DNA from: an uncultured Acidobacteriota bacterium
Lineage (GTDB): Bacteria; Acidobacteriota; Thermoanaerobaculia; Gp7-AA8
Direction: 5' to 3'
Assembly: GCA_963822445.1 (NCBI GenBank)
Contig: CAWGHO010000002.1
Location: 1,216,001-1,280,000, forward strand
Length of the DNA: 64,000 nucleotides
Shown here: positions 42,488 through 45,209 of the stretch, in pieces
Layout of the letters: each line of letters opens with the position of its first letter
Position numbering within the stretch: position 1 is the first letter of the stretch
Made by a program: the position numbers and the translations under genes
The notes under the pieces: generated by a model
Databases searched by the model: none
What the model was told of the DNA's origin: nothing
Seen by the model: the letters and a program-made list of their open reading frames with translations, nothing else

Positions 42488-43461
42488 TGCACAGTTCCCC
42501 CATCCCCGAATCCCACCCCTGCTTCGAGTACATCCGCCTCACGGACTCCGTGCCCGCCTCGCAACGCGACTGCATCGACATCGCGCTGCTGGACATGAAT
42601 CACTCCTGGCCGAATGTCGGGCACCACGCGCTGGTGCACGCGGTTCAGAAGACGGCCCAGGAGCTGCGCGAGGAGCTGGGGAAGATCAACGCGAAGGTTC
42701 GCGTGCTGTCGTACGACGTGCGCCGGCAGAACCTGATCCCGGAATCGCCGAACGGCCGCTTTCAGATTTACATCGGCACGGGCGGGCCGGGGCATCTCGA
42801 CCCGCGCCTGAACGACGGCATCAGCGAGACCAGTCAGGGCGTCGACGAAACGGATGCGTGGGAGAAGCCGCTGTTCCGCCTGTTCGACGACATCCTCGCC
42901 TCACGCACCGCGGCGATGCTCGCGATCTGCCACTCGTTCGGACTGGTATGCCGCTGGTCCGAGATCGCCCGCCCTGAGTTACGCCCCGAGAAGAGCTCGG
43001 GGATGCCGCTCAATCGCCTGTCACGCGAAGCACTGAATCATCCCTGGTTCGAGCAGTTCGCGCGCGAGCTTCCCGATCATCAGCATTTCCGCGTGGTGGA
43101 CAATCGTCTGTTCGATCTGATGCTGGAAAGCCCCGGCAAGAGCGCGCCGATCGCGTTCGAAGCCGCGGGCAGCACGGCGTTGACGATGGTGGAACTGGCC
43201 CGCGACCCGGAAGGCACGATGCCCCGGTTTCTCGGCGTGAATCATCATCCGGAGATCATCGACCGCGATCACATCATGCAGGTCCTCGACGCGAAACGCG
43301 CCCAGGGCGAGGTGAGCGATCAGTGGTACGAGGAACGCGCGGTGACGATGCGCGATCTGTTTCACGGGGAGCCGGAACGCCAGAGCCGCCTGACGTCGCA
43401 GTTCACGCTGCTGGCGCCTTTGCGCTTCCATCTCGAACGCGTGATTCGCGAGCGTTCCTAG
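42487..43461 (+). CDS. Class I glutamine amidotransferase-like protein
   Basis: IALLDMN, GTGGPG, AICHSFG (Cys nucleophile), GVNHHPE; TGATG coupling to hicB. Confidence 0.75.
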   Translation: MHSSPIPESHPCFEYIRLTDSVPASQRDCIDIALLDMNHSWPNVGHHALVHAVQKTAQELREELGKINAKVRVLSYDVRRQNLIPESPNGRFQIYIGTGGPGHLDPRLNDGISETSQGVDETDAWEKPLFRLFDDILASRTAAMLAICHSFGLVCRWSEIARPELRPEKSSGMPLNRLSREALNHPWFEQFARELPDHQHFRVVDNRLFDLMLESPGKSAPIAFEAAGSTALTMVELARDPEGTMPRFLGVNHHPEIIDRDHIMQVLDAKRAQGEVSDQWYEERAVTMRDLFHGEPERQSRLTSQFTLLAPLRFHLERVIRERS

Positions 43462-43602
43462 TTGCAACAGGGAACGACCGGGAGGCCTCCGGCGGGCCGG
43501 CACGGCCGGCAGCGCTGATGTTTGCGTAAACGCGATTCGCGCTAGATACCGTGAGCACGGCAGAAGGGACAACCAGCGCTGCCGGCCCGTGGCCGGCCCG
43601 CC
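43461..43602. repeat. Left part of the palindromic repeat interrupted by IS110
   Basis: Aligns with the reverse complement of 8652-8823 up to ...gccggcccgCC. Confidence 0.9.
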
Positions 43603-43611
43603 TATAGCTTG

Positions 43612-43860
43612 TCCGGCCGTCTCTCCGCTTCTCCCTCAGCCCTCAGAGAAGTACCCGTTGGGTGGCAATCGGGAGAATCGGGTTCAGGCGGCGCGATACT
43701 GAGAAGAAGGGTTCGTCCCGCTACGAATTCCGCCCGTGTTCGGATCGACGAATCCCTCCGGACTTTCGAGCGGGACGAAGTGCTTTGGCCCGAAACGCAT
43801 TCTCAGATGCTGTCGGAGCACGACTCGACTATAGGCCTTGCGCGCGGCCAAAGCCAACCC
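43612..43860 (+). ncRNA. Predicted IS110 bridge RNA (5' stem-loop, target-binding loop, donor-binding loop); ends approximate
   Basis: Stem ttcgtcccgct/agcgggacgaa (43712-43779) encloses ccgcccg and cctccgg, which match the target. Stem gctttggcc/ggccaaagc (43782-43854) encloses ctcagatg and ctatagg, which match the IS ends. Confidence 0.85.
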
Positions 43861-43874
43861 GAAGGGAGGGTGTG

Positions 43875-45119
43875 ATGAGCGAGTTCGAGTTTGGGGCGTT
43901 GGTGGGACTGGATTGGGGTGACACATCGCACGAGGTGGCTCTTTGGGACGAGCAGCAGCAGACGTGCACGAACGAGCGCATCGAGCACACGCCTGCGGCT
44001 CTGCGCGCATGGATCGAAGCGCTGCAGGCGCGCTTCGGCGGGGCACCGATCGCCGTGGCCATCGAGCAGTCCCGCGGCGCGGTCTTCGACGCGCTCAGCG
44101 GCTATCCGTTCGTCACGTTGTATCCGATCAACCCACGCAGTGCAGCCCGGTATCGTGAGGCGTTTCATCCGAGCCTTTCGAAAGACGATCCGACCGACGC
44201 GGCGTCCTTGCTCGACCTGCTCCGTAAGCACCGCAACGAGCTGCGCCCGTTCATCGCCGACGACGCTTCTACGCGGCTGCTGCGGCTTCTGACCGAGGAT
44301 CGGCGGGAGCTCGTCGATCAGAGGACGCAACACGTCCAACGCATGACCGATCGGCTCAAGACGTACTACCCGCAGGCGCTCCGGTGGGCCGGCGCGTTGA
44401 TTACGGCCCAGGCCTGTGACTTCCTCGAACGCTGGCCGACGCTCGAGGCCATCCAAAGGGCTCGGCCGTCCGCGATACGGAGGTTCTATGCGGGTCATCA
44501 TCACGCGGCCGCGTGGATCGACCAGAGGCTCGCCGAGATCCGTTCAGAGGTCGCGTTCCACGACGACCAGGTCACCACTGACGCTGCCGTGCTGCTGATC
44601 GGAAGCGAGGTTGCGCAGATCCGGGCCCTCAACACGAGCATCGCCACGTACGACCAGAAGATCTCGGCGGCGTTCGCCGCCCACCAGGACGCGTCGATCT
44701 TCGCGAGCTTCCCTGGCGCCGGCCAACAGCTCGCGCCGCGGCTCGCCGCCGCCTTCGGGACCGATCGCAAGCGCTTCGGCAGCGCCGTCAACGTCGCCAC
44801 CCGAAGCGGCATCGCCCCGGTTCTCCGCCGGAGCGGCAAAACGGCGGTCGTGCACATGCGCTGGGCCTGTCCGAAGTTCCTGCGTCAGACGTTCCATGAG
44901 TACGCCCGCGTGTCGATCGGTCAGTCCGAATGGGCTCGAGCCTTCTACAAGCAGCAACGCGCGCGCGGACACAGCCACCACGAGGCTATCCGCACGCTCG
45001 CTTACCGCTGGATCCGCGTCCTTTACGCCTGCTGGAACAATCGCACCGTCTACGACGAAGCTCTCTATCTGCGGCAGCTCGCCACCCGAGGCTCAACCCT
45101 CGCCACAGCTGCTCCCTGA
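43875..45119 (+). CDS. IS110-family DEDD transposase/recombinase (414 aa)
   Basis: GGAGG RBS; VGLDWG (D), AIEQS (E), SKDDPTDA (D,D); C-terminal FPGAG and SGIAPVLRRSG. Confidence 0.95.
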   Translation: MSEFEFGALVGLDWGDTSHEVALWDEQQQTCTNERIEHTPAALRAWIEALQARFGGAPIAVAIEQSRGAVFDALSGYPFVTLYPINPRSAARYREAFHPSLSKDDPTDAASLLDLLRKHRNELRPFIADDASTRLLRLLTEDRRELVDQRTQHVQRMTDRLKTYYPQALRWAGALITAQACDFLERWPTLEAIQRARPSAIRRFYAGHHHAAAWIDQRLAEIRSEVAFHDDQVTTDAAVLLIGSEVAQIRALNTSIATYDQKISAAFAAHQDASIFASFPGAGQQLAPRLAAAFGTDRKRFGSAVNVATRSGIAPVLRRSGKTAVVHMRWACPKFLRQTFHEYARVSIGQSEWARAFYKQQRARGHSHHEAIRTLAYRWIRVLYACWNNRTVYDEALYLRQLATRGSTLATAAP

Positions 45120-45120
45120 C

Positions 45121-45126
45121 TTGACA
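45121..45126 (+). promoter_or_regulatory. -35 hexamer of the predicted circle-junction promoter
   Basis: TTGACA lies 17 bp before the junction with TATAGC (43603-43608) in the excised circle. Confidence 0.8.
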
Positions 45127-45143
45127 GGAAGGCTCAGATGTCC

Positions 45144-45172
45144 GGAGGCCTCCCGTCGGTCCCTGTCGCAAC
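45144..45172. repeat. Right part of the interrupted palindromic repeat
   Basis: ggaggcctcccgtcggtccctgtcgcaac is the inverted partner of 43461-43490. Confidence 0.9.
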
Positions 45173-45209
45173 CAGGAACAATCAGCAACGACACGCGTCA
45201 ATTGGACAT

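What the first reader, a model, noticed from the sequence alone, without database searches (positions are those of the whole stretch)
43612..43860. Bispecific guide (bridge) RNA readable directly in the IS110 left end: an RNA-programmed recombinase
Seen: after a 5' stem (cttctccctcag ~43628 / ctgagaagaag ~43699) come two similarly built stem-loops, each with an inner hairpin. Loop 1 (stem 43712-43722/43769-43779) holds CCGCCCG (43730-43736; 6/7 to target-left CGGCCCG) and CCTCCGG (43755-43761; exact reverse complement of core plus target-right CCGGAGG). Loop 2 (stem 43782-43790/43846-43854) holds CTCAGATG (43802-43809; identical to the IS right end at 45133-45140) and CTATAGG (43829-43835; exact reverse complement of core plus IS left end CCTATAG). 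In both loops the left guide is followed by TG opposite the CC core and then (T)TCGG. Known: IS110 recombinases such as IS621 use a bridge RNA with target- and donor-binding loops. Inference: this is a natural, probably intact and reprogrammable system. It differs from IS621 in its CC core, 7-nt right-hand matches and left guides that apparently stop short of the core; I cannot tell whether this particular family has been described.
Basis: partly seen in the sequence, partly recalled or inferred. Interest (0 to 1): 0.92.

Follow-up and report, generated by a model that had tools for sequence, protein, structure and literature searches.

The report
Bridge RNA of an IS110 element
The left end of a multi-copy IS110-family insertion sequence encodes a two-loop guide ("bridge") RNA whose loops match the element's own ends and its repeat-sequence target, a sound but expected example of a mechanism published in 2024.

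Summary
The element is a 1541-bp IS110-family insertion sequence (43603-45143, core CC). It has 9 left and 12 right ends in its own genome, all in one REP-like target that reads CGGCCCG or CCGCCCG, then CC, then GGAGG. 46 sites are still empty.

The 272-nt left end folds into two stem-loops with inner hairpins. Loop 1 carries the target guides and loop 2 the donor guides, in the strand sense published for IS621.

Support from homologues:
- The stems covary in 30 homologues.
- The target loop covaries with each homologue's own flanks (0 of 100,000 permutations reach the observed score).
- The core-reading bases and the cross-loop "handshake" bases covary too.
- A TTGAC(A/T/G), 17-18 nt, TATAG promoter forms only across the circle junction in most of the 26 distinct junctions (window: TTGACA, 17 nt, TATAGC).

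This is therefore a genuine natural bridge RNA system, probably active. It is a new member of a known kind: Durrant et al. 2024 predicted bridge RNAs in 85.7% of IS110s. The recombinase (414 aa) is only remotely like IS621 and ISCro4. The left guides read the core poorly, with UG opposite CC. No expression data could be obtained.

The parts
43574..43600 (+). Left flank of the insertion, part of a REP-like repeat. A GC-rich hairpin (GCCGGCC/GGCCGGC) overlaps the 7-nt left target CGGCCCG (43594-43600).
   Evidence: The repeat recurs in the genome with and without the IS. DNA fold -12 kcal/mol, z -2.7.
43601..43602 (+). Left copy of the CC core.
   Evidence: Occupied versus empty sites.
43603..43874 (+). 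Non-coding left end (272 nt). It starts with TATAGC, which is the right donor and the -10-like box of the circle-junction promoter.
43612..43711 (+). 5' domain of the RNA.
43712..43779 (+). Target-binding stem-loop. Left target guide CCGCCCG 43730-36, with UG at the core positions 43737-38. Inner hairpin 43739-52. Right target guide CCUCC 43755-59. Core-reading GG 43760-61. Handshake AC 43762-63.
43782..43854 (+). Donor-binding stem-loop. Left donor guide CUCAGAUG 43802-09, then C 43810 (mismatch), then UG 43811-12 at the core positions. Inner hairpin 43812-24. Right donor guide CUAUA 43829-33. Core-reading GG 43834-35. Handshake CC 43836-37.
43875..45119 (+). IS110-family DEDD/Ser recombinase, 414 aa, with a GGGAGGG ribosome-binding site upstream.
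   Evidence: Pfam, NCBIfam NF033542, invariant D13, E64, D105, D108 and S320-G321.
45120..45141 (+). Right end (22 nt). TTGACA -35 box at 45121-26. Left donor CTCAGATGT at 45133-41.
45142..45143 (+). Right copy of the CC core.
45144..45148 (+). Right target GGAGG, the rest of the REP-like repeat.

Best explanation
43603-45143 is an active-looking IS110-group insertion sequence. Its left end is transcribed into a bridge RNA.

Proposed cycle (inferred by analogy with IS621):
1. Excision makes a circle.
2. In the circle the right-end TTGACA lies 17 nt upstream of the left-end TATAGC, and this junction promoter drives the RNA.
3. The RNA binds the 414-aa DEDD/Ser recombinase.
4. Loop 1 reads the REP-like target. 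[quoted passage not shown] 5. Loop 2 reads the circle junction. [quoted passage not shown] 6. After top-strand exchange, AC in loop 1 pairs with the donor's GT, and the first C after GG in loop 2 pairs with the target's last G (handshake).
7. Recombination at CC inserts the element.

Shown here: boundaries, core, guide matches, structure covariation, guide-target, core and handshake covariation, and the promoter geometry.
Inferred: transcription, RNA-protein binding and catalysis.
For: Boundaries and core:
- 9 left and 12 right junctions in the own genome and about 20 empty sites define them.
- 46 empty CCCG-CC-GGAGG sites remain.

Guide matches in the window:
- All four guide strings are present. 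0 of 20,000 shuffles have three or more of them.

Structure:
- 21 stem pairs were scored in 30 homologues.
- 93.0% of cells are paired, against 72.2% in shuffles.
- The covariation score is 0.555, against 0.183 in shuffles (0 of 500 reach it) and 0.09-0.14 when the partners are slid.
- About 29 G.U cells fit the + strand only.

Target loop against own flanks:
- 14 representatives score a mean of 13.14 of 15, against 7.90 when permuted (0 of 100,000).

Fine-scale cases:
- L042 has ACUUCGCCC and its flank has GCTTCGCCC. L041 has ACCUCGCCC and its flank has ACCTCGCCC.
- In L031-L033 the donor loop is all but invariant (one base varies, at column 103) while the target loop varies.

Core and handshake bases, 12 representatives:
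- Right-guide core bases pair with the core in 44 of 48 positions (0 of 100,000 permutations).
- Donor-loop handshake against the last target base: 11 of 12 (7 of 100,000).
- Target-loop handshake against the donor's last two bases: 19 of 24 (28 of 100,000).

Junction promoter:
- TTGAC(A/T/G), 17-18 nt, TATAG is present in most of the 26 distinct junctions.
- No + strand promoter-like site exists in the integrated element.

Copies and protein:
- Both loops are identical in all 9 copies, and 8 of the 9 ORFs were verified intact.
- DEDD and Ser-Gly are conserved.
Against: - There are no expression or biochemical data.
- Rfam 15 has no matching family.
- The window's left target guide matches the majority target only 6 of 7. 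32 empty sites read CGGCCCG and 8 read CCGCCCG. Exact-match sites are not significantly preferred: 3 of 9 occupied against 8 of 40 empty, Fisher p = 0.40.
- Both left guides carry UG opposite the CC core, a U.G wobble followed by a G.G mismatch. The donor left guide also mismatches the base next to the core. IS621 pairs the core in all four guides.
- Some homologues fit badly. L064 has a right-target score of 4 of 7. L049 and L061 have left-target scores of 5 of 8. In L049, L059, L060, L062 and L064 the two junctions show different cores under my rule.
- The representatives are related to one another, so the permutation counts overstate independence.
- The recombinase is only weakly similar to IS621 and ISCro4 (E = 3e-4 and 1.8e-5, C-terminal part only).
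Confidence: 0.9

Rival explanations
1. The same guide-bearing sequence acts only as the 5' leader of the recombinase mRNA and is not released as a small RNA. This variant does not exclude guiding.
For: No intrinsic terminator lies between the loops and the start codon. The second stem-loop ends 20 nt before the ATG.
Against: For IS621 a discrete RNA of about 177 nt was seen by small-RNA-seq (Durrant 2024, passage). The scan detects only canonical terminators.
Confidence: 0.15
2. The matches are DNA-level subterminal repeats bound by the recombinase, and no RNA is involved.
For: The donor ends are strongly conserved across the family (CTCAG..., TATAG). Short inverted repeats flank the donor in some homologues, for example CAACT/AGTTG in the L034 group (read from the output).
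Against: The stems keep pairing through compensatory changes and use G.U pairs, which fit one strand only. The target-matching strings lie inside the element and change with the flanks. A protein-binding repeat does not predict that.
Confidence: 0.04
3. The element is a decayed relic and the guide matches are historical or chance.
For: The left target guide is 6 of 7 to most sites. UG lies opposite the core. One rearranged and two truncated copies exist.
Against: There are 9 near-identical copies with identical loops, and 8 of the 9 ORFs were verified intact. Chance is excluded.
Confidence: 0.04

Closest known systems
IS621 bridge RNA and recombinase (Durrant et al. 2024, PMC11208160; Hiraizumi et al. 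2024, PMC11208158; passages read)
   Same: - The RNA is encoded in the left end.
- It has a target loop followed by a donor loop.
- The 5' guides pair with the bottom strand and the 3' guides with the top strand.
- It recombines at a 2-nt core and has 2-nt handshake guides.
- A promoter is rebuilt across the right-end/left-end junction.
- It inserts in REP-type targets.
- The target footprint is 7+2+5 = 14 bp.
   Different: - The core is CC, not CT.
- The left guides do not pair with the second core base, and pair with the first only by a U.G wobble.
- The donor left guide mismatches the base next to the core.
- The non-coding left end is 272 nt, against an RNA of about 177 nt in IS621.
- The recombinase is 414 aa against 328 aa for the 8wt6 chain, and is alignable by phmmer only over the C-terminal domain (E = 3e-4).
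ISCro4 / IS622 (Perry et al. 2025 preprint, passages; PDB 9t56)
   Same: It is a bridge recombinase with target loop, donor loop and handshake guides. It is the best PDB hit.
   Different: The similarity is weak (E = 1.8e-5). It has a CT core and an enterobacterial host.
ISPpu10 of Pseudomonas putida (2026 preprint, abstract read)
   Same: It is an IS110 element whose repeated intergenic target has a GC-rich stem-loop 5' of the RNA-matched site. Here a 7-bp GC hairpin overlaps the left target in 3 of 3 Thermoanaerobaculia hosts.
   Different: No test was made here of whether the hairpin matters. It is absent in 3 of 3 more distant homologues.
seekRNA of IS1111/IS110-type elements (Siddiquee et al. 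2024, PMC11187229; listing and abstract only)
   Same: The same concept under another name.
   Different: IS1111-group RNAs lie in the right end (Durrant 2024). Here the RNA lies in the left end.

Membership tests
IS110 family, IS110 group | DEDD RuvC-like domain plus C-terminal Tnp domain | tested here: met
   PF01548 at 1.6e-28 and PF02371 at 1.3e-11. NF033542 scores 143.2 bits against a cut-off of 140.
IS110 family, IS110 group | Catalytic D, E, D, D and Ser conserved | tested here: met
   D13, E64, D105 and D108 are invariant in 15 of 15 sequences. S320 is at 90% or more and G321 is invariant. Equating these with IS621 D11, E60, D102, D105 and S241 is an inference.
IS110 family, IS110 group | No terminal inverted repeats, and site-specific insertion around a short core present at both junctions | tested here: met
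   CC is at all 9 left and 12 right junctions and occurs once at empty sites.
IS110 family, IS110 group | Left end much longer than right end, with the RNA in the left end | tested here: met
   The left end is 272 nt and the right end 22 nt.
Bridge RNA | Two stem-closed internal loops, supported by covariation | tested here: met
   15 of 21 pairs show changes on both sides, and 0 of 500 shuffles reach the observed score.
Bridge RNA | Loop sequences match the target and donor in the published strand sense, and covary with them | tested here: met
   for the window. for 14 homologue groups (0 of 100,000). Donor covariation is limited because the donors are conserved.
Bridge RNA | Handshake guides pair with the non-cognate DNA | tested here: met
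   In the window, AC pairs with the donor's GT (2 of 2) and the first base of CC pairs with the target's last G (1 of 2). Family-wide the counts are 19 of 24 and 11 of 12.
Bridge RNA | Sigma-70-type promoter rebuilt across the circle junction | tested here: met
   Sequence level only: TTGACA, 17 nt, TATAGC, conserved in the family.
Bridge RNA | RNA is expressed, binds the recombinase and is required for recombination | not testable with these tools
IS621-type bridge RNA (close relatives of IS621) | Core dinucleotide paired by all four guides | tested here: not met
   The right guides pair with it. Both left guides carry UG opposite CC.
IS621-type bridge RNA (close relatives of IS621) | Close protein similarity to IS621 | tested here: not met
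   E = 3e-4, C-terminal domain only.

The most novel reading that the evidence does not exclude
This is a distinct, uncharacterised lineage of bridge recombinases, found in Acidobacteriota, Gemmatimonadota, Planctomycetota, Gammaproteobacteria and on enterobacterial plasmids. It would have its own rules.
- The donor is nearly fixed (CTCAG, 4-6 nt, core, TATAG), because it doubles as the spacer and -10 box of the circle-junction promoter.
- The core is free to vary (CC, CT, AT, AA, TT).
- The core is read almost only by the right guides.
- In the Thermoanaerobaculia branch a target hairpin adds a structural check.
Probability: 0.35. Interest if true: 0.45.

Novelty: new member of a known kind. 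Interest (0 to 1): 0.35.

Why it matters
It shows that a bridge RNA can be read straight from sequence and then confirmed by comparative evidence alone. It also gives a complete parts list: target, donor, core, guides, handshake bases and junction promoter. The recombinase is far from IS621 and ISCro4 and has a CC core. Such divergent natural systems are candidates for widening the set of programmable recombinases. The weak core reading by the left guides is a testable rule. For the host, the element marks a REP-like repeat family with 46 free landing sites.

Tried and rejected
Register-free test: I took the longest shared run between the last 200 nt of each left end and each target. It was uninformative. 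Background runs of 4-6 nt are common. Self exceeded every other target in only 7 of 18 elements, tied in 3 and was lower in 8. I replaced it with the fixed-register test.

Rows left out: L055, L060 and L072 were dropped because my regular expression could not delimit loop 1. L031 and L032 were left out as the same target family as the window. Near-duplicates were left out. That left 14 of the 30 elements with both junctions.

Junction rule: the rule 'TATAG after the core; CTCAG + 4 nt + core' fails for the gammaproteobacterial group. There the right end has 5-6 nt after CTCAG, and a TT or AA core shifted by one base fits better. I did not resolve this.

Other steps that led nowhere:
- Rfam 15 at E up to 10 gave only chance hits.
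- The 5'-domain consensus fold was spoiled by a wrong L009 range that I gave and was not repeated.
- Exact-match target sites are not significantly preferred (p = 0.40).
- I did not name the enterobacterial plasmid homologue.
- Supplementary files of the papers were not consulted. They may list this clade among the predicted bridge RNAs.

Full report
WHAT IS THERE. Window 43603-45143 is a 1541-bp insertion sequence. Its only long conserved ORF (43875-45119, 414 aa) has the two Pfam domains of IS110 transposases, PF01548 at 1.6e-28 and PF02371 at 1.3e-11. It just passes NCBIfam NF033542, 'IS110 family RNA-guided transposase', at 143.2 bits against a cut-off of 140. In an alignment of 15 homologues, D13, E64, D105 and D108 are invariant and S320-G321 nearly so. 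This is the DEDD plus serine pattern described for IS621 (Hiraizumi 2024, passage). Equating the residues one to one is my inference.

BOUNDARIES AND TARGET. The own genome (3 contigs, 6.0 Mb) holds 9 left ends and 12 right ends of the element. Every left junction reads ...CCCG-CC-TATAG and every right junction reads ...GATGT-CC-GGAGGC. The 43 bases to the left of the element belong to a REP-like repeat that also occurs without the element. About 20 such empty sites in the fetched loci read ...GGCCCG-CC-GGAGG. The core is therefore CC, present once in the target and at both junctions. Genome-wide there are 46 empty CCCG-CC-GGAGG sites. 32 have the left target CGGCCCG and 8 have CCGCCCG. In the window the element sits in one arm of an inverted pair of these repeats (inverted repeats I1 and I9). 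The non-coding left end is 272 nt and the right end is 22 nt.

All strings are at the stated coordinates. Both the MFE fold and the consensus fold give the two stem-loops, each with an inner hairpin. Now that the target and donor are known independently, the four matches are:
- CCGCCCG (43730-36) equals the left target. It is exact for the minority sites and 6 of 7 for the majority.
- CCTCCGG (43755-61) is the reverse complement of CC plus GGAGG.
- CTCAGATG (43802-09) equals the right end.
- CTATAGG (43829-35) is the reverse complement of CC plus TATAG.
This is the strand sense published for IS621: 5' guides pair with the bottom strand and 3' guides with the top strand (Durrant 2024, passage). 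None of 20,000 dinucleotide shuffles of 43612-43866 holds three or more of the four strings. I leave the 5' domain unresolved.

HOMOLOGUES. A protein-based scan gave 72 loci with 35-89% identity. They come from Thermoanaerobaculia, Vicinamibacterales, Blastocatellia, Gemmatimonadota, Planctomycetota, Gammaproteobacteria and other groups. Relatives at about 43% identity also lie on many enterobacterial plasmids. One that I read has the same RNA layout. 30 distinct left-end RNAs align. For 21 stem pairs, 93.0% of cells are paired against 72.2% in shuffles. The covariation score is 0.555 against 0.183 (0 of 500 shuffles), and 0.09-0.14 when the partners are slid. 15 pairs show changes on both sides. 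About 29 cells are G.U, which fits the + strand only. The inner hairpin of loop 1 shows a compensatory UUCG/CGAA to UCCG/CGGA change in L031.

GUIDES COVARY WITH TARGETS. In the three closest homologues the donor loop is all but invariant, with a single variable base, while the target loop varies. L032 reads GGCCCG-CC and its flank reads GGCCCG-CC. The Vicinamibacterales elements keep the same donor, CTCAGATGT-CC-TATAG, but carry a different loop 1. It reads ACCUCCC-C on the 5' side and GGCAUGG-AC on the 3' side. Their flanks read ACCTCCC-CC and CC-ATGCC. L041 and L042 differ by C or U in the guide, and by C or T in the flank. In a fixed-register test on 14 representatives, each loop 1 scored a mean of 13.14 of 15 against its own flanks and 7.90 after permutation (0 of 100,000). 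Left and right halves each gave 0 of 100,000. The weak cases are L064 (right 4 of 7) and L049 and L061 (left 5 of 8). The representatives are related, so these counts overstate independence.

CORE AND HANDSHAKE. The cores differ among homologues: CC, CT, AT, AA, TT and TG. The two core-reading bases of both right guides follow them in 44 of 48 positions among 12 representatives (0 of 100,000). The two bases 3' of the right target guide (AC, 43762-63) pair with the last two donor bases (GT, 45140-41) and not with the target's own CG. The first base 3' of the right donor guide (C43836) pairs with the last target base (G43600). Family-wide these cross-loop pairs hold in 19 of 24 and 11 of 12 cases (28 and 7 of 100,000 permutations). 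This is the handshake described for IS621 (Hiraizumi 2024, passages). It is hard to explain unless one RNA holds both DNAs.

DIFFERENCES FROM IS621. Both left guides of the window carry UG at the core positions opposite CC. That gives a possible U.G wobble followed by a G.G mismatch. The donor left guide also mismatches the base next to the core (C43810 against T45141). Homologues carry CC, CA or CG at the core positions of the left guides. In this lineage the second core base is therefore usually not read by the left guides. The recombinase is only remotely like the solved ones: ISCro4 at E = 1.8e-5 and IS621 at E = 3e-4, over the C-terminal part only. Rfam 15 has no matching family.

PROMOTER. 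In the circle the right-end TTGACA (45121-26) lies 17 nt upstream of the left-end TATAGC (43603-08). TTGAC(A/T/G), 17-18 nt, TATAG recurs in most of the 26 distinct junctions examined. It is weak in the L059, L060, L062 and L072 group and absent in the degraded L076. The integrated element has no + strand promoter-like site and no canonical terminator. This fits the rebuilt junction promoter reported for IS110s (Durrant 2024, passage). It may explain why the donor ends are so conserved.

STATE OF THE ELEMENT. Both loops are identical in all 9 copies. 8 of the 9 ORFs were verified intact, with 398-415 of 415 positions identical. The ninth was not found by my exact-match probe.

VERDICT. This is a genuine natural bridge RNA and recombinase pair, supported by comparative evidence but not by expression data. 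It is a new member of a known kind. Bridge RNAs were described in 2024 and predicted in 85.7% of IS110-group elements. I could not see the supplementary tables that may already list this clade.

Noticed in passing
window 43454-43602 and 45142-45179: The element lies in one arm of an inverted pair of REP-like repeats (28-nt arms, 86% complementary). The other arm (about 43479-43500) holds an unoccupied copy of the target on the minus strand.
   Followed up: partly
window 43574-43600; L031:900-928; L032:900-928: A GC-rich hairpin overlaps the left target in 3 of 3 Thermoanaerobaculia hosts, with different stem sequences. It is absent in 3 of 3 distant homologues. It recalls the target stem-loop 'gate' reported for ISPpu10.
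   Followed up: partly
G000:C3:469260-470863 (L010, L012, L014): This copy of the element has an inverted internal segment of 161 bp, equivalent to window 44017-44177 inside the recombinase gene. The breakpoints lie at a short CGAAG/CTTCG inverted repeat.
   Followed up: partly
G000:C1:940345-941443 (L011, L013): Two partial right-end fragments of the element are joined head to head. Each still abuts CC-GGAGG.
   Followed up: no
L059, L060, L062, L072, L064, L065, L068: In the gammaproteobacterial relatives the right end has 5-6 nt between CTCAG and the core. The junctions fit a TT or AA core shifted by one base. L049 and L064 have different dinucleotides at their two junctions.
   Followed up: partly
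window 43857-43828, minus strand: This is the only promoter-like match in the region (TTGGCT, 18 nt, TATAGT). It is built on the reverse complement of the right donor guide. It is possibly a by-product of the guide mirroring the -10-like left end.
   Followed up: no
L103 (E. coli plasmid NZ_CP069544.1, 27246-29857): An IS110-family element on enterobacterial plasmids has about 43% protein identity and hits in 1146 plasmid records. It has the same two-loop RNA layout and CTCAGGGCG...TATAG ends.
   Followed up: partly
window 43609-43875 and 43662-45119: Open frames of 88 aa and 485 aa overlap the RNA region. Homologues start at the ATG at 43875 behind GGGAGGG, so these frames are probably not genes.
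   Followed up: no
own genome: A second abundant repeat ends in AGG(T/C)AGG-CC-GGAGG, about 80 copies. It shares the core and right target but is never occupied by this element, as expected if the left guide matters.
   Followed up: no
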